NCBI GenBank assembly: GCA_024674815.1
Contig: GCA_024674815.1_4104.1
DNA: 64,000 nucleotides
Strand: one strand, 5' to 3'
From: a phage
The number at the start of each line of letters is the position of its first letter. The first letter of the stretch is position 1. The position numbers and the translations under genes were made by a program. A model generated the notes under the pieces. The model saw nothing but the letters and a program-made list of their open reading frames with translations, was not told the DNA's origin and searched no databases. Below, one piece after another: positions 13,993 to 37,343 of this stretch.

Positions 13993-14412
13993 TCATTTAC
14001 AGTTTTCTATAACTATTGCACGTTTTAGTATTTTACTTTCATAAACATACTTAAGATGACCTTCTTCACGAATACGATTGAACACATATCCTAGTTTATC
14101 TTTTAGTACTGAAGCGGTATCAATGTCAAGATTAACTTCAACCCCTCCTGTTAATTTAACTTTATATGTAAATCTAAAAGCATCACCAGATTCAACCAAT
14201 GGGACTACTTGTTCATACGTATTCAACATAACTCGTTCATCATTAACTAAATTATATATTACTATATCACAAGTTTTTACCCCAATTTCCTCTAATGTAG
14301 GAGCATTATCTACTATAACATCTTTTACTGTATTTGCAACCTGTTTAGCATCTGCTGCATATACATTAAAACTAAAAAGTACTAAAATAATACTTAAAAA
14401 AATCTTTTTCAT
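13993..14412 (-). CDS. secreted protein (signal peptide)
   Basis: N-terminus MKKIFLSIILVLFSFNVYA. Confidence 0.65.
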   Translation of the reverse strand: MKKIFLSIILVLFSFNVYAADAKQVANTVKDVIVDNAPTLEEIGVKTCDIVIYNLVNDERVMLNTYEQVVPLVESGDAFRFTYKVKLTGGVEVNLDIDTASVLKDKLGYVFNRIREEGHLKYVYESKILKRAIVIENCK

Positions 14413-14421
14413 TATATATCC

Positions 14422-14745
14422 TTATTTTATTTTACACGTCATATCGGGTTGTGCTTGTTTATTATTTTTAAACGGATTAGGTTTTTTATCTTTCTTTTTA
14501 TCTTTTAAAGGTTTTTTGTCTTCTTTTTTATCTTTATCTTTGTCTTTTTTATTTTTATCAGGTTCAGAGGGAGTATTACATTGTGCTGGGGGTTGATTAG
14601 TTGGAGTACAGCTATTGTCTGATGGGAGTATTACTTCTTTACAATTGTAAAATAGTAAACTTTTATTTGTGGTTAAATTATGAAAACGATAGTTACGTTC
14701 ATTATTATAATAAATTGTTTTAGTACTTTCAATGCCATTGCACAT
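14422..14745 (-). CDS. Lys/Asp-rich low-complexity protein
   Basis: KDKDKDKKEDKK tract; Cys-containing N-terminal part. Confidence 0.45.
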   Translation of the reverse strand: MCNGIESTKTIYYNNERNYRFHNLTTNKSLLFYNCKEVILPSDNSCTPTNQPPAQCNTPSEPDKNKKDKDKDKKEDKKPLKDKKKDKKPNPFKNNKQAQPDMTCKIK

Positions 14746-15078: not shown

Positions 15079-16332
15079 TCATTTACCGTATTTGCTCATG
15101 ATGTCCTTTTCCCAAGGAGTTACATTTCCATTTTCGTAATCACGGAAAGAGTCATCAAGTGTAGTCAATGCATAATCATATGCCTCACCGGATTCAACAT
15201 CAATATCAACAGCACCATTCACTACATCAGTCCACGCTTTTTGTAGTTTACGAGCGTTGTTACCAACTTTATCTTTAATCCAACTAAGATTTCGGTTTAT
15301 ACTCTTCTTATCAGCACCAGCTTTTTCACCAACATCTGCAACCCATTGCATTAATTTCTGTAGTTCGTTATGGGATTTTTCAGTCATTTGGCGGTCTTGT
15401 GACAGTTCAGCTTCCATGTCATCAATTTCTTCGTCTGAATGAACATCGTTCTGTTCTACTGCACCTTCTTCATCATCACGCATCAGATAACCATCTCGTG
15501 TAACCTTCTCACCATGATCAGCTTCATACTTTTTCATAGTATTGAATGCAGCATCCATTGCAGTTACAAAACGACTCTTTTCACCTTGTACATAAGATTT
15601 AAGTGCATCGTTAACTGCATCAGATACTAATTTAATCTTATCGTCTTTACCTTCCAGACGGTTTTCTAACTTAGCTAGTACATTCTTAACTTTTTGAGCA
15701 TTAGCACGGTCTTCTTTACCAATACTATCAAATGTTTTAAGTACGCTTTCAAGACTTACTTCCTCTTGTGCAGGCACATCACCTTGTTGCGTACCTTCAA
15801 GTGCACGCATTATAGTACTGAATACTTCAGTTGGTTCAGTACTGGTATTTCCACTCATTGCATCAAGCACAGCTTGTGCTTTGACTTTTAATTCTTCTTT
15901 AGGTACAGATTGCAATTCTTTCACAATACCTTGGATAAGTTGTGGTTTATTAGCAAAAATCTTACCTAACTTATCCGACAGTTCTTTGACAGGGTTAACC
16001 GCCTTTGGTGCTTCTTGTTTTGGTTCTTCTTTAGCAGGAGCAGATTTTTCTTTTTCTTCACGTTCCATATCAGCTAGGCGTTGTTTTTGTGTAGCATTAA
16101 GAAGTCCCAATGAATTAACATAACGTAGCTTTTCTAGCTCAGTCATGTTCTCAGTACTCTTAACTTCACCTGCTTCTGCGTTTGCTTTACCAGCTAGACC
16201 AGTTCCTTGGTTACGTGATCCACGTGAACCTTGACCTGCTTGATAACTATTTGGACGGCGGTTGCGTTCACTCCATTTATCAGAGTGACCAGCCATGTTA
16301 CCACCATTTTTATCAGTAAAATTACTTGGCAT
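15079..16332 (-). CDS. large charged hypothetical protein (paralog of 16602..16985)
   Basis: Shares LRYVNSLGLL and KEL-x-VPKEELKVKA segments with 16602..16985; start set at Met after GGAGAG. Confidence 0.6.
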   Translation of the reverse strand: MPSNFTDKNGGNMAGHSDKWSERNRRPNSYQAGQGSRGSRNQGTGLAGKANAEAGEVKSTENMTELEKLRYVNSLGLLNATQKQRLADMEREEKEKSAPAKEEPKQEAPKAVNPVKELSDKLGKIFANKPQLIQGIVKELQSVPKEELKVKAQAVLDAMSGNTSTEPTEVFSTIMRALEGTQQGDVPAQEEVSLESVLKTFDSIGKEDRANAQKVKNVLAKLENRLEGKDDKIKLVSDAVNDALKSYVQGEKSRFVTAMDAAFNTMKKYEADHGEKVTRDGYLMRDDEEGAVEQNDVHSDEEIDDMEAELSQDRQMTEKSHNELQKLMQWVADVGEKAGADKKSINRNLSWIKDKVGNNARKLQKAWTDVVNGAVDIDVESGEAYDYALTTLDDSFRDYENGNVTPWEKDIMSKYGK

Positions 16333-16392
16333 TTGATTTCTCTCCATAGATTTCATTTTTTCTCTATGTCTATATTTATAGTATAAAGAAAA

Positions 16393-16601: not shown

Positions 16602-16985
16602 TTACTTCTTGAACTTATGTTTTTCACTTTCGATTGCATTCACGATTTCATCATGAATTTTACGAAGATTGTGAGTTTTCTTTAGAGATTCATGTAATGC
16701 ACGGAATGCAGAGTGTACAGTTGCTTTAAAGTGCTCTTTAGGAGTTACTTTAAGTTTCTCGATAATATCACGTACATAGATTGGGTGATCCTCAAACACA
16801 CGATTAAGCTCATGACCTAGTGATTCTAGGCTAAATGCTTTTTCACGGGATGGACGATCATGTGCAAGACTTTGGTCTGGTTTTAGAAGACCTAGTGAAT
16901 CTAGATACTTGTGCTTATGTGCATTGTCTAGACCAGAAATATCAACATCATGTGATGGATCTTTCTTATTCCATTTATCAACCAT
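16602..16985 (-). CDS. hypothetical protein (paralog of 15079..16332)
   Basis: HKYLDSLGLLKPDQ and KLKVTPKEHFKATV motifs shared. Confidence 0.6.
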   Translation of the reverse strand: MVDKWNKKDPSHDVDISGLDNAHKHKYLDSLGLLKPDQSLAHDRPSREKAFSLESLGHELNRVFEDHPIYVRDIIEKLKVTPKEHFKATVHSAFRALHESLKKTHNLRKIHDEIVNAIESEKHKFKK

Positions 16986-17100
16986 TTTTATAACTCCTAT
17001 AAGAGATAAATTTTACTATAATATTTATAGTTCCGTTGTCATTTATATCGAATGACATAAAACATTATATCATAATAAGAATGGTTGTCCCAAAGTTAAA

Positions 17101-28304: not shown

Positions 28305-29270
28305 TTAGAAATCTTCGTATTCGTACCCTTTTGCAAGTACTAACTTCTTAAGCTTTTGCATAGCTTCACTGTACTTTCGATGTATTGATGAACGGGATTT
28401 AACATATTTTCCATTATCATCAACAAAACCATTATCAGCAATCTCACGAAGCGTTTCAGGTTCATATTCACCTAGACCATGAACACGCTGGATAATCTCA
28501 CGTTCTTTAGTACTCAATTCGTTGGTCAGTTCATTGATAGCATAACGCAAAGGTGCACGGATACTATCAACATTGAGGTTAAAATCAGAAGCAGGTGAAT
28601 GAATAATGTCACCTAATGTACCATCTGTAACACCGTCTAATGGTGCATCCAGCGAAGTGTATTCGCTTTGAAATAACAAACAATTATTAACATGCTGAAT
28701 CTCAATCCCAGTACCCTCTGAGATTATTTCAGGAGTTGGGCGAACACCATGTTTACGCATATATTCCTGACAGAATCTTTTTACTTTGATCTTATGAACA
28801 CTCATATAACGTGGGAAGTGTACCATATAGTTAGCGTCAGAACTTTCGTTATAGACTGTCATGTAAATACTAGAAGAAGCATAGGTAATGAACTTAACAT
28901 TCTTATTAAGATCAAAGGTTTTTAGTGCTCTCATGAACCCCTCAACACCATATGAAATCTTATCTTCAAATGGGATATAACAAGTACATTTACTTGCTAC
29001 ATCAATAATCAGTCCATAATTGTAACGAACTAACAGTTCAGTGTTTTTCTTTACATTGATACCAGCTTGAATATCACGAATTAGATCTTCATTGGAAACA
29101 TTTGGTGGTCGCTTAAGTGTAATATTATATTTGAAACTGCTTTGTACTTTACCTTCATTATCATCTTTATCTTCAACGAAATCTAAGGCTTCTAGTGTGT
29201 TGACTTCTTCATTAGCAAAACATTCATCCAGAACTTCTTCGGCAATTGTATTTAAATCAAGCTTTTTCAC
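28305..29270 (-). CDS. sigma-70-family RNA polymerase sigma factor
   Basis: Region-2-like YGVEGFMRALKTFD...KFITYA; region-4-like C-terminus; 321 aa. Confidence 0.6.
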   Translation of the reverse strand: MKKLDLNTIAEEVLDECFANEEVNTLEALDFVEDKDDNEGKVQSSFKYNITLKRPPNVSNEDLIRDIQAGINVKKNTELLVRYNYGLIIDVASKCTCYIPFEDKISYGVEGFMRALKTFDLNKNVKFITYASSSIYMTVYNESSDANYMVHFPRYMSVHKIKVKRFCQEYMRKHGVRPTPEIISEGTGIEIQHVNNCLLFQSEYTSLDAPLDGVTDGTLGDIIHSPASDFNLNVDSIRAPLRYAINELTNELSTKEREIIQRVHGLGEYEPETLREIADNGFVDDNGKYVKSRSSIHRKYSEAMQKLKKLVLAKGYEYEDF

Positions 29271-32684: not shown

Positions 32685-33145
32685 CAGAAGCCTCTGTATT
32701 TTTCATATACTTCAACGCATTCCATGATTTTGTCATCGTCCATCATATCATAGCCTTGTAGAAATTCTTCTTTATCAACCTTCCCTGCCATCATATCTGT
32801 GTCAGAAATTCTGGAGTCATAGAAGGAATACATATCTTTATAGTACTGGTTTTTGTGCTGCTCAATCTTTACTTTAGCATATCCAGCACAAAATGAAGGA
32901 GATTTAACAACTTCCCATTTATGCTTCTTGATGGGTTTATCATTAGCATGTTTTTCCCTGTATGTCTGACGATAACGTTCACGCATTTCAGGCATGTATT
33001 CGTCAGCAGTACGTTTAGGGGGAGTTTTACCAGTCCCAATAGTTTTAATAGTTTGACGTTGTTCTTCTGCGTGTACTGGGGAAATAAAACATGATGTGCC
33101 AAACAGTACTGCTACGATAACCATAAAATTCTTAAACATAATCAA
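32684..33145 (-). CDS. secreted protein
   Basis: Signal peptide ending SPVHA. Confidence 0.6.
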   Translation of the reverse strand: MIMFKNFMVIVAVLFGTSCFISPVHAEEQRQTIKTIGTGKTPPKRTADEYMPEMRERYRQTYREKHANDKPIKKHKWEVVKSPSFCAGYAKVKIEQHKNQYYKDMYSFYDSRISDTDMMAGKVDKEEFLQGYDMMDDDKIMECVEVYEKYRGF

Positions 33146-33369
33146 ACCTCTTTTACAATAATATCGATTGATACTGGAATTGCAATTTCACTATTACATG
33201 AATACACATCAGCACAGTACTCAATATCTAGAACTTTATAATATTTCTCAAACCCACAAATGGTAAGATTCAACGTTGACCCAACTACTGGGAGTACAGG
33301 AAATGATAAGAACGCAATTTTAGAATGAAATTCTTCATTGATATCTTGATATACAGTTGCAGTAATCAC
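33142..33369 (-). CDS. hypothetical protein
   Basis: 75-aa ORF. Confidence 0.5.
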   Translation of the reverse strand: MITATVYQDINEEFHSKIAFLSFPVLPVVGSTLNLTICGFEKYYKVLDIEYCADVYSCNSEIAIPVSIDIIVKEV

Positions 33370-33950
33370 AATGGTAACTCCTGTAGTGGTTTCATAATAC
33401 CGAGTACTGGGTGATTTTCAATCATTGGTCGCCCTGGTACACCAGTGAGGACAACTGGGATAGAACTAATATCTTTTACATAGTTGAATCCCTCAAACGT
33501 GAACTCTTGTTTTTTCTCATTATACAATACCCATAGTATTACGTCAGCTTTTTTCTGGATATTTTTTAACTGTCGAGTACTAACACATGGTCCAAAGTCA
33601 GTCCATGATTTATACTTGATACCTTTTACTTCAATACGAAGGTTGTTTACCTTAATATCACATTCACCGTCACGTGCTTCATTTTGGAATGCTGGATCGA
33701 TATTAAGTTTAATACCAGTATTGTTTTCAATTTCATTAAAAAGTACTAAAGATGCGTGCTCACACACCATACCAACAAAATGACTATGTGCATGATTAAA
33801 ACCATATGGCGATTTACTTGCTGGAGCCAAAAGTTTATATCTTTCTGATTTTTCAATCGCTTTTGCCATAAAGGAATCAGCTTCATCTTTATATAACTTA
33901 ACAGTCATTTTTCCATTTTTCAGTACTAATCTATTATCAATAACATTCAT
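33366..33950 (-). CDS. hypothetical protein, possible PD-(D/E)xK-like nuclease fold
   Basis: D...EVK spacing in ECDIKVNNLRIEVKG; weak. Confidence 0.55.
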   Translation of the reverse strand: MNVIDNRLVLKNGKMTVKLYKDEADSFMAKAIEKSERYKLLAPASKSPYGFNHAHSHFVGMVCEHASLVLFNEIENNTGIKLNIDPAFQNEARDGECDIKVNNLRIEVKGIKYKSWTDFGPCVSTRQLKNIQKKADVILWVLYNEKKQEFTFEGFNYVKDISSIPVVLTGVPGRPMIENHPVLGIMKPLQELPL

Positions 33951-34066
33951 AAAAACACCTCATTATTCATTCACTACATGATAACACCAAATCATACACC
34001 AGTCAAGCTCATTTTTTGGATATGCATAATAAATACGTTATAATAATTATACCAATGGAGGGATAA

Positions 34067-35221
34067 ATGTCAAGGTCAATTGCTGCGGCTGGACGCTATA
34101 AGTTTGGTGAATGTGGTTATGTTGTTGATGGTGCAATCCTCAACGATGGAACTAGACTAAAAAATATTAGAATCTATCGCCAAAGAAGCCATAGATTATA
34201 TGATTTAGTTGATCCAAGAACTAATATAATATATCGTAAAGTACAAATAACAACTAAAGATAATAAAGGTTATCTATTAAATTACAATAAAACTAATGAC
34301 CAACTATTAAGTGAAATTAATAAAAATTGTTTCTTTGTTCGTGGATATTCTGAAGAGCCACAAGAAACTGATACTGGATTTGTATATAAATTTATGCTAC
34401 ATAAAACAATTTTAGGTAGTTCACAAACCTTGTATCATATGTATACACCTGAATGTGGTATTATAGATCGTGATATAGATAATATTCTCATTTCACCAGT
34501 ATTTGTTGGTAATGACTCAATTAGTGGTAAATTATTCAACACTGGTTCAGAAATTGATACTAACGGTATGGTAATAACAATCGTATTACCAGACGGGACA
34601 GAATACTTTACTACCCAATTTGTTAATGATGCATTTACAATTCCAGTTGATGTTATCACACAATCAGGGAAAGGTACTGCTACGCTCACTTCTCCATATT
34701 ATAACACTAAAGTGGTGGAATTTGATGTTCTTGAAAGTGGTGAGGATATTGATTTTGTTACATCAGTTCTTCTATCCCAATTTGAACCTGTTTCGGAAGG
34801 TGTATTTTCTGCGGTTGTTCCATTTGATGTTCATGATCGTGGACAGTACTTAGCACTTCAAGCATACAGTGGTGACTTATATCAAGTTGGTGTAGATCTT
34901 TCTGTAGACGCAGAAGGTAATATTACTGTGTATCAAACTGATAATTTACCTGTTTCTTTGAGTATAATCGGAAAAACACTGCATACTACTCCTTTCCATA
35001 AAGAATATACTTTAAGTGAGTGGGTTCTCGGTGAAGACTCTATGTACTCTATCTCAGTTCCAGTAACTGAACATGGTAAAGCACTACCACAAGTTCAATT
35101 ATATTCTTCAGACAATCATGTAGTTCATAGTGAAATACAAGTGGATGAAGATGATAATGTAATTCTTAAAGTAGTAGAACCGCTTGACTGCTCAGTCGTA
35201 ATAGTTGGTTACAACGCATAA
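34067..35221 (+). CDS. hypothetical protein (lone plus-strand gene)
   Basis: 384-aa ORF with GGAGGG SD; followed by hairpin terminator. Confidence 0.7.
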   Translation: MSRSIAAAGRYKFGECGYVVDGAILNDGTRLKNIRIYRQRSHRLYDLVDPRTNIIYRKVQITTKDNKGYLLNYNKTNDQLLSEINKNCFFVRGYSEEPQETDTGFVYKFMLHKTILGSSQTLYHMYTPECGIIDRDIDNILISPVFVGNDSISGKLFNTGSEIDTNGMVITIVLPDGTEYFTTQFVNDAFTIPVDVITQSGKGTATLTSPYYNTKVVEFDVLESGEDIDFVTSVLLSQFEPVSEGVFSAVVPFDVHDRGQYLALQAYSGDLYQVGVDLSVDAEGNITVYQTDNLPVSLSIIGKTLHTTPFHKEYTLSEWVLGEDSMYSISVPVTEHGKALPQVQLYSSDNHVVHSEIQVDEDDNVILKVVEPLDCSVVIVGYNA

Positions 35222-35229
35222 TAAAAAAA

Positions 35230-35248
35230 GCCACTACATTGTAGTGGC
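35230..35248. terminator. bidirectional terminator hairpin between convergent genes
   Basis: gccactacattgtagtggc flanked by A-run and T-run. Confidence 0.65.
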
Positions 35249-35263
35249 TTTAATTTTATCTAA

Positions 35264-36076
35264 TTATTTGAAATTGTCACGTAGAACTTCTTCAAGTGTT
35301 TTATCTGGATTGCTAATGGCTACATTATAAATCAATTCTTTAAATGCAGTTAGTGCCTGCTCAGTTGCTTCTGGACCAAAGTTCTCACTAATGCTTTTAA
35401 ACATACTTTGTGCACGTTCTGATTTGATACAACTAGTTACAAACTTGTCAATTTCATTACGAAGCTGCTTAGTTGTCATGTCACCAATGAGCATCTCACT
35501 AATTTCTTTTGGTTCATCTGCACTTGTTCGGACATTCGTAAAACCAAACACATCATCACCTGAGCCAAAGCTACGTTTTTCTTTTTTAGTTTCTTTTACT
35601 GGTTCTTCTTCAACTTCTTGTTCGTATTCTTTAGTAAAGAGATGAGATAGTACATCATCAAGATTTTTAACCATACCGTCAATACGAGATTCAGCATTCT
35701 TGGATACATGTTTGAATGCTTGCTCTAGTGCTTTTTCTTGAATCTGGTCACGAACATTATTAACTACATTACGAAGTTTTTCATTACAGTTGTCTAAAAT
35801 TTCTAATACTTCACCAGTTTTGATTTTTTCCAAAAGTACATCTAAATCAGATTTTACATGTTGTTTTTGACTTACTTCACCATTAAGAATTGAATTCAAT
35901 TCTTTAGCACCTTCAACTGCTTCTTCATGTGTTTTAAATTCAACTGGTACGTCAACACCATCCAGTACAATATTAAGCACTTTACCATCAACGTAGGCGT
36001 AGGAGTAAGATGCTTTTTTGAAAGAAATAGTTTTGAAGAAAATGTTGCTCATATTGATATACTCCTTAATGCCCAC
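35264..36076 (-). CDS. acidic hypothetical protein
   Basis: 270-aa ORF. Confidence 0.65.
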   Translation of the reverse strand: MGIKEYINMSNIFFKTISFKKASYSYAYVDGKVLNIVLDGVDVPVEFKTHEEAVEGAKELNSILNGEVSQKQHVKSDLDVLLEKIKTGEVLEILDNCNEKLRNVVNNVRDQIQEKALEQAFKHVSKNAESRIDGMVKNLDDVLSHLFTKEYEQEVEEEPVKETKKEKRSFGSGDDVFGFTNVRTSADEPKEISEMLIGDMTTKQLRNEIDKFVTSCIKSERAQSMFKSISENFGPEATEQALTAFKELIYNVAISNPDKTLEEVLRDNFK

Positions 36077-36407
36077 TAGCTGGGAAGGTTTTAAACATAT
36101 AGTGACATTGTACTAAATCATCGAACTTCAAGCCGAAGTCTTTAGTACCCATCAGTGTGTGGTAAAAATAATGCGAAATTGTATTAGTTTCAGCGTCTTT
36201 AATATAGATACCAAATTCGGTACAGCAAAACTGAACAACTTCATTATAACTTTCTAACTTGGAAATTACAAGTACTTGATCATAAGAATTTTTATCAAAT
36301 CCAATGATGTACATTTCCTCTGTTTCTGGGTGTACAATCATCCCACCGCGAGAAATAATTTTCTCGAAGTTACTGCTCAAGTACTGAATTGTTGAACTTA
36401 AGTTCAT
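36066..36407 (-). CDS. hypothetical protein
   Basis: 113-aa ORF. Confidence 0.55.
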   Translation of the reverse strand: MNLSSTIQYLSSNFEKIISRGGMIVHPETEEMYIIGFDKNSYDQVLVISKLESYNEVVQFCCTEFGIYIKDAETNTISHYFYHTLMGTKDFGLKFDDLVQCHYMFKTFPASGH

Positions 36408-36620
36408 TTACAACTCCTTACGTATTACTCGTCCGGTAAGATGTTCATCTGTACAGAACTTCATTATAAATGCTTTTAGATGGAAGTCTTCTAAAATTCT
36501 ATATGCTTGCTTTTTCATAACGACTTCCTTCTTCTTCACATCAACAATTATATCATGTTTCTCGTGAAGTTCCTGGATCATTTGATATGAATTCAAACTT
36601 AGTACGCTCATAACCACCAA
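36408..36620 (-). CDS. hypothetical protein (start uncertain)
   Basis: ORF overlapping upstream gene. Confidence 0.4.
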   Translation of the reverse strand: MVVMSVLSLNSYQMIQELHEKHDIIVDVKKKEVVMKKQAYRILEDFHLKAFIMKFCTDEHLTGRVIRKEL

Positions 36621-36927
36621 TGTCCTCCATCTCCCACAAAATTTGAACTGCCACTTCTAATTCGTGGTGAATTTGAAAATAACCATTACTTGCAGTATAG
36701 ATGTAGCCATTTTTAGTAATTGCATAACCCCACTTTTTACTTTGAGAATGCATCTCACGTTTCAACCCATAAGGTGATGGTGGCTTCTTGACTGGTTCTG
36801 GTTCTCGGTTTTCGTTGTAAATCTCTTGTTCGATTCGCAACGCTTTATGATATGAGTATACATGAATCAGACGACAAAGTACAATAGTAATGCAACAAAT
36901 AATTGTAAATGTTATCAAGCTCATCAA
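36553..36927 (-). CDS. hypothetical protein with N-terminal TM
   Basis: 124-aa ORF. Confidence 0.5.
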   Translation of the reverse strand: MMSLITFTIICCITIVLCRLIHVYSYHKALRIEQEIYNENREPEPVKKPPSPYGLKREMHSQSKKWGYAITKNGYIYTASNGYFQIHHELEVAVQILWEMEDIGGYERTKFEFISNDPGTSRET

Positions 36928-37343
36928 TTTGCCCTCTGCCTAGATACATATTCATTAATTGCATCTTCCAAATCATACCCTGACATTTTTACATTATCAA
37001 TTGAAACATGATATTTTTTCAGCACTTTTTGTCCAGCAGTGTTCTCCCATATAGACCCATCAGGCTCAATATGAACTTTATGGTTCAGGATGAAATCGAA
37101 CATTTCTTCTTTTGATAAGTTTGCTTTACGGGTTTCAATGTGATTAGTATTAAGTAATTCACGAGTATGTTTAATGCCATATTCGGTGTGCACACCAACA
37201 CTACGATGCAAAACTTTTAACTGCTCGGTAGCAGTCTCTTCATCATAAACATGAATAGTTTCAGTACTATATAAAATATCCTGAATATTACCAGTACTTA
37301 CTTCTGTCCAAGTGTCTTTGAAATGAATTTTGATTGTTTTCAT
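36924..37343 (-). CDS. hypothetical protein
   Basis: 139-aa ORF. Confidence 0.6.
   Translation of the reverse strand: MKTIKIHFKDTWTEVSTGNIQDILYSTETIHVYDEETATEQLKVLHRSVGVHTEYGIKHTRELLNTNHIETRKANLSKEEMFDFILNHKVHIEPDGSIWENTAGQKVLKKYHVSIDNVKMSGYDLEDAINEYVSRQRAN

What the first reader, a model, noticed from the sequence alone, without database searches (positions are those of the whole stretch)
34067..35221. Lone plus-strand gene inserted in a minus-strand gene block, with its own SD and a bidirectional terminator
This is the only plus-strand gene between ~2.7 kb and the window end. It is flanked upstream by a divergent intergenic region (33951-34066) and downstream by a symmetric hairpin (35230-35248) shared with the convergent gene. 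The 384-aa product has no motif I recognise. The moron-like arrangement suggests independent acquisition and regulation.
Basis: seen in the sequence. Interest (0 to 1): 0.4.

Follow-up and report, generated by a model that had tools for sequence, protein, structure and literature searches.

The report
Late virion decoration gene, reversed
The lone plus-strand gene is a known, conserved virion protein of 121Q/PBECO4-type jumbo coliphages (an anchor domain followed by three Ig-like domains); it faces backwards because it is most likely a late gene with its own T4-style late promoter inside an early-gene block, not a recently acquired "moron".

Summary
ORF 34067-35221 (+), with a GGAGG Shine-Dalgarno and an A-run/hairpin/T-run bidirectional terminator, is the only credible plus-strand gene from 2.7 kb to the window end. 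The window is an Asteriusvirus (121Q/PBECO4-like jumbo coliphage).

The gene is 121Q gp155, annotated "virion structural protein, Ig-domain". Mass spectrometry detected its orthologs in purified phAPEC6 (gp077) and CBB (CBB_496) virions.

It is not a moron. The gene, its reversed orientation, the divergent neighbour gp156 and the terminator are kept in all 61 phage records that carry it (down to 31% identity, including a Xanthomonas phage). Its composition equals the genome's. Only RaK2-type Klebsiella phages lack it, and a neighbour-gene tree indicates secondary loss.

It is autonomously regulated. A T4-late-like (A)TAAATA lies 24-35 nt upstream of the ATG in 11/11 loci. The motif is four-fold avoided in the window and otherwise precedes virion genes. 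A gp55-like late sigma exists in the genus. Consensus sigma70 promoters face the opposite way.

The protein has a ~125-aa N-terminal module without a Pfam family, shared by about 90 proteins that carry Ig-like arrays, then three beta-sandwich domains that diverge faster towards the C-terminus. The likely role is a Hoc-like accessory surface adhesin or short fibre. This is ordinary, with modest added value.

The parts
34067..35221 (+). CDS, 384 aa = 121Q gp155 / phAPEC6 gp077 / CBB_496: virion-associated protein (PHROG 10468)
   Evidence: MS detection of orthologs in virions: phAPEC6 gp077, 10 peptides, 37.8% coverage (PMC7247149); CBB_496, 4 peptides, 17.5% (PMC5259590).
34067..34441 (+). N-terminal module (aa 1-125), proposed virion-attachment domain; small beta-barrel with one helix; no Pfam family
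34478..35218 (+). Three tandem Ig-like beta-sandwich domains (aa 138-225, 226-303, 304-384), proposed exposed distal part
   Evidence: AF2 pLDDT >90. Foldseek matches tandem Ig arrays of adhesins, filamin and NCAM, probability up to 1.0. Identity falls 45.8 > 40.8 > 38.8% towards the C-terminus. Domains 2 and 3 are weakly similar to each other (E 1.3e-5).
34027..34035 (+). T4-late-type promoter core TAATAAATA (ATAAATA 34029-34035), 31 nt before the ATG
   Evidence: TAAATA lies 24-35 nt upstream of the ATG in 11/11 loci, against at most 4/9 in 20,000 shuffles. ATAAATA occurs 12 times against 45.4 +/- 6.3 expected in the window. The other well-placed intergenic copies precede virion genes. ATAAATA is reported as the putative late promoter of CBB/GAP32 (PMC5259590).
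34057..34061 (+). Shine-Dalgarno GGAGG, 5-nt spacer to the ATG
   Evidence: an equivalent purine-rich SD is present in all relatives.
35227..35251 (.). Bidirectional intrinsic terminator: A-run, 8-bp GC-rich stem (35230-35237 / 35241-35248), T-run
   Evidence: annotated in G17. A hairpin with flanking A and T runs follows the stop codon in 11/11 loci with six different stem sequences.
33978..34006 (-). Sigma70-type promoter TTGACT-17-TATCAT (TG-extended) driving gp156 and the leftward early block
   Evidence: promoters scoring 10 or more of 12 face the gp156 homolog in 10/11 intergenic regions and in RaK2.
34046..34073 (-). Second, perfect sigma70 consensus TTGACA-16-(TG)TATAAT; its -35 overlaps the gp155 start codon, back-to-back with the late promoter
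   Evidence: 12/12 match; identical in WPEC3. The 34 nt from ATAAATA to GGAGG are 100% identical between the window and WPEC3 while the rest of the spacer has diverged.
33366..33950 (-). Divergent neighbour gp156 (194 aa), first gene of an early unit; conserved anchor of the locus
   Evidence: 63-93% identity across genera, 72% in RaK2, 33% in a Vibrio phage; PHROG 16175.
35264..36052 (-). Convergent neighbour gp154, also a virion-associated protein, last gene of the upstream minus-strand unit; shares the terminator
   Evidence: PHROG 14991. MS: phAPEC6 gp078c, 4 peptides; CBB_494, 1 peptide.

Best explanation
**What it is.** The gene encodes an accessory virion-surface protein of Rak2-like jumbo myophages.

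**How the protein probably works.**
- A conserved ~125-residue N-terminal module fastens it to the particle (capsid or tail; the site is unknown).
- A short conserved linker follows (aa 126-137).
- Three Ig-like beta-sandwich domains then project outward as a short fibre. They probably make weak, Hoc-like contacts with carbohydrates or cell surfaces.

**How it is probably expressed.**
- It is a late gene placed in the gap between two early transcription units.
- Host sigma70 RNA polymerase transcribes the surrounding minus-strand genes early, from consensus promoters in the same spacer.
- Late in infection, polymerase carrying the phage gp55-like sigma starts at the (A)TAAATA element about 31 nt upstream of the ATG and reads the plus strand.
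- The hairpin stops both this transcript and the convergent early unit.
- The reversed orientation keeps early read-through from producing sense mRNA. This is the T4 rule that strand reflects timing class.

**Shown:** the gene, signals and synteny; their conservation; virion presence of the orthologs; the domain architecture.

**Inferred:** late timing, the attachment role of the N-module, surface exposure and the adhesin function.
For: - **Identity and virion presence.**. MS tables: PMC7247149 and PMC5259590.
- **Conserved reversed arrangement.** Seen across genera.
- **Late promoter motif.** Conserved in 11/11 loci and beyond chance. Avoided genome-wide. In the window it is tied to virion genes.
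- **Late sigma.** The literature links the motif to a gp55-like sigma. That sigma has a 74% identical homolog in an Asteriusvirus and matches PHROG 234 'late sigma transcription factor'.
- **Opposing early promoters.** Sigma70 promoters face the other way in 10/11 spacers.
- **Terminator.** Conserved in structure but not in sequence.
- **RaK2 junction.** It shows terminator then promoter with nothing between them.
- **Fold.** N-module plus three Ig-like domains.
- **N-module family.** It precedes Big_2, Invasin or HYDIN-like Ig arrays in many relatives.
- **Conservation gradient.** Identity falls from N-terminus to C-terminus.
- **Recurring cassette design.** Paralogous N-module genes CBB_112 and three genes in metagenomic contig L021 are built the same way: reversed, with TAAATA upstream; three of the four are followed by their own hairpin (the 344-aa L021 gene is not).
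Against: - No transcription time course or 5' end mapping exists for any Asteriusvirus in the papers searched.
- The motif here is AATAAATA, 7 of 8 against T4's TATAAATA. Four lineages have GGTAAATA instead.
- The neighbour gp154 is also found in virions yet lies in the 'early' strand without such a motif, so strand is not a perfect proxy for timing.
- The attachment site and any binding activity are untested.
Confidence: 0.75

Rival explanations
1. Moron: a recently and independently acquired cassette with its own promoter and terminator, giving a host-range or host-fitness trait and varying in presence among close relatives.
For: - It has autonomous signals.
- It is absent at the syntenic site in RaK2-type phages.
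- The wider N-module family varies in copy number and C-terminal content between phages.
- One record (SD-6_S16) carries a split copy.
Against: - It is present in the same place and orientation in all 61 records that carry it, down to 31% identity.
- Its divergence tracks the flanking genes.
- GC is 33.6% against 33.4% for the window.
- RaK2 nests inside gene-bearing taxa, which indicates loss rather than gain.
- The product is a structural virion protein of a strictly lytic phage.
Confidence: 0.05
2. It is the gene for a specific, so far unassigned cryo-EM density of 121Q/phAPEC6. The main candidate is the flexible fibre anchored at the centre of every capsid hexamer, a true Hoc analogue; the alternative is the collar or distal-tail decoration. 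This refines the best explanation rather than contradicting it.
For: - phAPEC6 cryo-EM shows unassigned fibres at hexamer centres and decoration at the collar and distal tail, and states that no known decoration homolog was found (PMC7247149).
- gp077 is among the better-covered unassigned virion proteins (10 peptides, 37.8%).
- An anchor plus a chain of three Ig-like domains would be short and flexible, as Hoc is.
Against: - There are no stoichiometry data.
- The density looks dimeric or trimeric, and nothing here predicts oligomerisation.
- RaK2 lacks the gene, while its paralog with the same N-module remains.
- Several other unassigned virion proteins compete for the same densities.
Confidence: 0.25
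3. It is an essential receptor-binding tail fibre or spike component rather than an accessory decoration.
For: - RefSeq labels paralogs 'major tail protein' and fHe-Yen9 annotators wrote 'possible surface protein, responsible for cell interaction'.
- The distal domains evolve fastest.
Against: - The 'major tail protein' label comes only from the Big_2 domain.
- The protein has no fibre, spike, beta-helix or trimerisation features.
- It is 100% identical in phages isolated on E. coli O157, K-12, APEC and Salmonella, so it does not track host range.
- An entire genus does without it.
Confidence: 0.07

Closest known systems
[quoted passage not shown] 2006, cited in PMC5259590)
   Same: It is a similar size (384 aa against 376 aa for Hoc, from my own knowledge). 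It combines one attachment domain with three tandem Ig-like domains. It appears non-essential, since one genus lacks it. It is virion-associated, late-type regulated, and encoded away from the main structural cluster.
   Different: There is no detectable sequence or profile homology. The domain order is reversed: the anchor is N-terminal here and C-terminal in Hoc (own knowledge). The anchor fold has no known relative. The attachment site is unknown.
T4-type late genes embedded among early genes on the opposite strand (late promoter TATAAATA read by gp55)
   Same: The core motif sits at the right distance from the start codon. A gp55-like sigma is encoded by the genus. Orientation opposes the early genes. 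The motif is avoided elsewhere in the window.
   Different: The motif is AATAAATA or GGTAAATA rather than TATAAATA. The CBB authors found no gp33 or gp45 homologs. Timing is not measured.
CBB_112 / GAP32 Ig-domain protein / RaK2 'putative structural protein' (paralogs annotated 'major tail protein')
   Same: They share the N-terminal module. They are MS-verified virion proteins. CBB_112 has the same lone reversed-cassette design with TAAATA upstream and a hairpin downstream.
   Different: The C-terminal part is one canonical Big_2 domain (218 aa in total), not three divergent beta-sandwiches. The genomic site differs (NAD-salvage/dCMP deaminase block). This paralog is retained in RaK2.
Lambdoid-phage morons
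   Same: It is a single gene flanked by its own promoter and terminator, lying between two transcription units.
   Different: It is not variably present among close relatives and not compositionally foreign. It is not expressed from a prophage, and its product is a virion part.

Membership tests
PHROG 10468 (virion structural protein of Rak2-like jumbo phages; 121Q gp155 orthologs) | Full-length profile match | tested here: met
   E 7.6e-184 over residues 1-383 of 384; 100% identical to 121Q gp155.
PHROG 10468 (virion structural protein of Rak2-like jumbo phages; 121Q gp155 orthologs) | Physical presence in purified virions | not testable with these tools
   Taken from the literature for orthologs: phAPEC6 gp077 (99.5% identical), 10 peptides; CBB_496 (38% identical), 4 peptides.
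Moron | Own promoter and terminator between two transcription units | tested here: met
   empty terminator-promoter junction in RaK2.
Moron | Presence/absence polymorphism among otherwise syntenic close relatives, indicating recent gain | tested here: not met
   Present in all 61 records of five or more lineages. Absent only in Alcyoneusvirus, which nests among carriers in 200/200 bootstraps.
Moron | Atypical base composition relative to the genome | tested here: not met
   GC 33.6% against 33.4% for the window; GC3 17%, which is within or below the neighbours' range.
T4-type late gene | TATAAATA-like element shortly upstream of the transcription start, no -35 element | tested here: met
   AATAAATA at 34028-34035. 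The TAAATA core is conserved in 11/11 loci 24-35 nt from the ATG.
T4-type late gene | gp55-family late sigma encoded by the phage | tested here: met
   CBB_244 matches PHROG 234 at E 5e-19. A 74% identical homolog is present in Asteriusvirus ECO103 4-12-1. It lies outside this window.
T4-type late gene | Expression restricted to late infection | not testable with these tools
   No transcriptome found in the papers searched.
T4 Hoc family | Sequence homology to Hoc, with N-terminal Ig domains and a C-terminal capsid-binding domain | tested here: not met
   No Hoc family among the Pfam, PHROG or PDB hits. Domain order is reversed.
Ig-like domain phage surface proteins (structural class) | Ig-like beta-sandwich fold in tandem | tested here: met
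   AF2 pLDDT >90 for three domains. Foldseek probability 0.9-1.0 to filamin, NCAM, Bap and Sap Ig arrays.
Pfam Big_2 (PF02368) | Profile match above the gathering score | tested here: not met
   No Big_2 hit for gp155, although the paralogs P0033, P0047, P0059 and CBB_112 have it.
Bidirectional intrinsic terminator | GC-rich stem-loop flanked by an A-tract 5' and a T-tract 3' | tested here: met
   termination itself was not measured.

The most novel reading that the evidence does not exclude
The ~125-aa N-terminal module, which has no Pfam family and no structural relative, may be the common socket adaptor for the unexplained 'hairy' fibres of Rak2-like jumbo phages. On this reading each phage carries a variable set of late, reverse-oriented cassettes encoding this adaptor fused to Ig-like arrays of 1 to more than 15 domains. 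gp155 would be the ancient short member that fills one of the unassigned cryo-EM densities, such as the hexamer-centre fibre of 121Q/phAPEC6.
Probability: 0.3. Interest if true: 0.45.

Novelty: new member of a known kind. Interest (0 to 1): 0.2.

Why it matters
The gene itself is already annotated and proteomically verified, so the finding mainly removes a false lead: it is not a moron. Three things have modest value.

- **Locus anatomy.** It gives a clean, conserved example of how these poorly studied 350-kb phages insulate a late gene inside an early block. A T4-type late promoter and consensus sigma70 promoters lie back to back, and a shared terminator closes both units.
- **Testable late-promoter definition.** (A/G)TAAATA lies 24-41 nt upstream of the start codon, and the motif is avoided elsewhere in the window.
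- **Candidate attachment module.** The shared N-terminal module is a concrete candidate for attaching Ig-array fibres. It could help assign genes to the unassigned capsid and tail decorations seen by cryo-EM in phAPEC6, 121Q and CBB.

Tried and rejected
- **Sequence family searches.** Pfam and NCBIfam scans of gp155 gave nothing above cut-off; the best was a weak Ig_NUP210 hit.
- **PDB by sequence.** No relative found; best E 0.72.
- **Paralogs in the window.** tblastn of the whole protein and of each half found none.
- **Other plus-strand gene.** The 14078-14596 ORF was rejected as an antisense shadow.
- **Literature.** The Sharanji, JP4 and fEgEco12 papers hold no promoter or time-course data. 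The PMBT63 'Hoc-like' paper concerns a T4-like phage, not this family.
- **Late motif for gp154.** None was found upstream of gp154.
- **Horizontal acquisition.** Considered and rejected on synteny, composition and the gp156 tree.

Full report
**1. What is there**

The window has 33.4% GC and is 99-99.9% identical over 33000-37000 to Asteriusvirus jumbo coliphages (SHEFM2K, JP4, PBECO4, 121Q, G17, phAPEC6).

- The ORF 34067-35221 (+) is real: 384 aa, ATG start, GGAGG at 34057-34061, tandem TAATAA stops.
- Its upstream neighbour 33366-33950 is divergent and its downstream neighbour 35264-36052 is convergent.
- The hairpin 35227-35251 has an A7 run, an 8-bp GC-rich stem and a T run. It scores as a terminator on both strands (-16.7 and -18.3 kcal/mol) and is annotated as one in G17.
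- The 'only plus-strand gene' statement holds. The 172-aa plus ORF at 14078-14596 lies antisense to two annotated minus-strand genes. The few other plus-strand calls in SHEFM2K are 36-69-aa gap-fillers without any family.

**2. Identity of the product**

- The protein is 100% identical to 121Q gp155, annotated 'virion structural protein; structural protein, Ig-domain'. It matches PHROG 10468 end to end at E 7.6e-184.
- The 99.5% identical phAPEC6 gp077 was detected in purified virions by ESI-MS/MS: 42.88 kDa, 10 peptides, 37.8% coverage (PMC7247149; locus tag confirmed).
- The 38% identical CBB_496 was detected in CBB virions: 4 unique peptides, 17.5% (PMC5259590 Table 4; locus tag confirmed).
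- The neighbour gp154 (phAPEC6 gp078c, CBB_494) was also detected.

**3. The acquisition hypothesis**

- *Distribution.* tblastn finds full-length homologs in 61 phage records. Identity is 66-100% in the core Asteriusvirus species, 53% in A4 and 42% in EJP2. It is 36-40% in Munch-like Salmonella/Klebsiella phages, Erwinia phages, GAP32, CBB, BF and fHe-Yen9-04, and 31% in Xanthomonas phage XaC1.
- *Synteny.* In every annotated locus examined the gene is a lone opposite-strand gene, divergent from the gp156 homolog and convergent with the next minus-strand gene. The loci were 121Q, G17, WPEC3, A4, EJP2, Hallingskeid, Munch, GAP32, CBB, fHe-Yen9-04, XbC2 and XaC1.
- *Divergence.* Its divergence lies between that of gp156 (53-93%) and gp154 (23-68%) in each lineage, as expected for vertical descent with the locus.
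- *Composition.* GC is 33.6% against 33.4% for the window.
- *The exception.* Alcyoneusvirus (RaK2, K64-1 and relatives) keeps gp156 (72% identical) and gp154/gp153 homologs but has nothing between them. The 141-nt junction reads stop, hairpin AGCCTCCC/GGAGGCT plus T-run, TTGACA-17-TGTATAAT, ORF234.
- *Direction of change.* A neighbour-joining tree of gp156 rooted on a Vibrio jumbo phage places RaK2 as sister to Asteriusvirus, nested among gene-bearing taxa in 200/200 bootstraps. The absence is therefore most parsimoniously a loss.

**4. Regulation**

- *Late promoter.* The spacers upstream of the orthologs have diverged almost completely. All 11 nevertheless keep TAAATA ending 24-35 nt before the ATG, as ATAAATA in seven and GGTAAATA in four. 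Composition-preserving shuffles of nine independent spacers never gave more than 4 of 9 in 20,000 trials.
- *Motif distribution in the window.* ATAAATA occurs 12 times against 45.4 +/- 6.3 expected. Its well-placed intergenic copies lie upstream of gp155 and of the two other genes annotated as virion structural proteins, 15079-16356 and 16602-16985, both with full TATAAATA. Only 7 of 153 ORFs have TAAATA 22-38 nt before a start, and these include two RCC1-like genes at 298-1764, a class found in virions.
- *Literature and late sigma.* The CBB authors derived ATAAATA as a putative late promoter before structural genes of CBB and GAP32. They noted a T4 gp55-like sigma (CBB_244) and assigned CBB_390-546, which contains CBB_496, to the early region with RpoD-like promoters. 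CBB_244 matches PHROG 234 'late sigma transcription factor' and has a 74% identical homolog in an Asteriusvirus.
- *Early promoters.* Facing the other way, the window's spacer holds TTGACT-17-TATCAT (34006 to 33978) and a perfect TTGACA-16-TGTATAAT (34073 to 34046). The -35 of the perfect one overlaps the gp155 start codon. Promoters scoring 10 or more of 12 face the gp156 homolog in 10 of 11 spacers.
- *Selection on the leader.* The 34 nt from ATAAATA to GGAGG are identical between the window and WPEC3, although these genomes are only about 78% identical and the rest of the spacer differs.
- *Terminator.* A hairpin flanked by A and T runs follows the stop codon in 11/11 loci with six unrelated stem sequences.
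- *Reading.* The gene occupies the gap between an early-unit terminator and the next early promoter and carries its own late promoter.

**5. The protein**

- *Full-length model.* AlphaFold2 on 14 orthologs gives mean pLDDT 80. It shows an N-terminal domain and three beta-sandwich domains, aa 138-222, 230-301 and 310-383, each with pLDDT >90.
- *Fold matches.* Foldseek against the PDB returns tandem Ig arrays such as Bap, filamin 3-5, NCAM Ig1-3, antigen I/II and Sap. Against BFVD it returns orthologs and paralogous 'surface/cell adhesion' proteins of fHe-Yen9 and CBB.
- *N-module family.* A profile search of 1.8 billion representatives shows that aa 1-122 form a module at the extreme N-terminus of about 90 proteins of 124-1859 aa. 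Their remainders are 5-7 Big_2 repeats, Invasin_D3/Big_1 or long HYDIN-like Ig arrays.
- *Conservation gradient.* Among orthologs mean identity falls from the N-module (57.6%) through Ig1 (45.8%) and Ig2 (40.8%) to Ig3 (38.8%). This fits a conserved anchor with an exposed, faster-evolving tip.

**6. A recurring design**

- The paralog CBB_112 has the N-module plus one Big_2 domain and was MS-detected with 4 peptides. It is itself a lone reversed gene inside the NAD-salvage/dCMP-deaminase block, with GGATAAATA about 38 nt upstream, a bidirectional hairpin downstream and a divergent TTGACA promoter.
- A 117-kb metagenomic contig of a related phage carries three reversed N-module genes (653, 344 and 221 aa) in the same block, each with TAAATA upstream.
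- RaK2 retains this paralog although it lacks gp155.

**7. Interpretation**

The best-supported reading is a late-expressed accessory surface protein: an N-terminal virion anchor and three Ig-like domains acting as a short Hoc-like adhesin or fibre.

- phAPEC6/121Q cryo-EM shows unassigned fibres at hexamer centres and decoration at the collar and distal tail. gp155 is a reasonable but unproven candidate for one of these.
- It is not a Hoc homolog, and its domain order is reversed relative to Hoc.
- It does not track host range, being 100% identical in phages isolated on diverse E. coli and on Salmonella. One genus lacks it. Both points argue against an essential receptor-binding role.

**8. 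Verdict**

'Independent regulation' is supported by sequence evidence. 'Independent acquisition / moron' is not supported. The gene is already annotated and proteomically verified, so novelty is low. The shared N-terminal module and the cassette design are modest new leads.

Noticed in passing
window 34046-34073 (-): A perfect 12/12 sigma70 consensus (TTGACA-16-TGTATAAT) overlaps the gp155 start codon and 5' leader. It lies back to back with the late promoter core at 34029-34035, so the two predicted start sites are only a few nt apart on opposite strands. It is identical in WPEC3. Other genera place their second early promoter upstream of the late motif instead. This could make early and late initiation mutually exclusive.
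   Followed up: partly
window, whole (12 sites listed): ATAAATA is about four-fold under-represented (12 observed against 45.4 +/- 6.3 in dinucleotide shuffles). This is consistent with selection against spurious late promoters. Full TATAAATA occurs in intergenic DNA only at 16373-16380 and 17022-17029 (-), upstream of the two other annotated virion structural genes.
   Followed up: partly
window 33366-33950 (-): gp156 is unusually conserved for this block: 63-72% across genera, 53% in Xanthomonas phage XaC1 and 33% in Vibrio phage 2.275.O. It is the first gene behind one or two consensus early promoters. It has only a weak NOV_C hit and is called 'putative endonuclease' in fEgEco12. Its function is unknown.
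   Followed up: partly
window 35264-36052 (-): gp154 is MS-detected in phAPEC6 and CBB virions. Yet it is the last gene of a minus-strand (presumed early) unit and has no TAAATA motif upstream. It evolves fast (23-34% between genera). It may be an early-made packaged protein, or transcribed by read-through.
   Followed up: partly
L004 5149-5691, L007 5150-5689, L005 5146-5685, L014 2650-3189, L006 5656-6174: In Mimasvirus, Eneladusvirus and the Xanthomonas phages a SAM-dependent ('tRNA') methyltransferase gene lies in the stretch between the gp155 ortholog's stop and the next conserved minus-strand gene (in XaC1 a further ORF, XaC1_539, lies between them). In the four loci other than XaC1 the shared terminator hairpin then overlaps its 3' end. 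Asteriusvirus lacks this gene here.
   Followed up: no
L015 3841-3983 (RaK2): At the site where gp155 is missing, the RaK2 junction holds a terminator directly followed by a perfect TTGACA-17-TGTATAAT promoter. No remnant of the gene was detected by tblastn.
   Followed up: yes
L017 7001-7657 (CBB_112); L021 6001-7962, 9332-10366, 10409-11074: Paralogous genes with the same N-terminal module are also reversed late-type cassettes inside metabolic gene blocks. Their number and length vary between phages.
   Followed up: partly
L020 6001-11580: A metagenomic relative encodes an 1859-aa protein with the N-module followed by about 15-20 Ig-like repeats. It has no TAAATA in the 70 nt upstream. It is long enough to be a candidate for the roughly 100-nm 'hairs' described on CBB and phAPEC6.
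   Followed up: no
window 28305-29270 (-): A phage-encoded sigma70-family RNA polymerase sigma factor (PHROG 351) lies 5 kb away in the same minus-strand block. It is distinct from the gp55-like late sigma, which is outside the window.
   Followed up: no
window 14078-14596 (+): A 172-aa TTG-start ORF lies antisense to two annotated minus-strand genes (13993-14412 and 14422-14745). It is a shadow ORF, not a gene.
   Followed up: yes
Salmonella phage SD-6_S16 (OR699182.1) 176021-177114: The gp155 ortholog is split into two ORFs in this record (96% coverage in two pieces; P0009 is a 242-aa fragment). This is either a sequencing error or a disrupted, dispensable copy.
   Followed up: no
window 298-1764 (+): The RCC1-like ('regulator of chromosome condensation') genes at the left end also have TAAATA 28-36 nt before candidate starts. 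This agrees with their detection in phAPEC6 virions.
   Followed up: no
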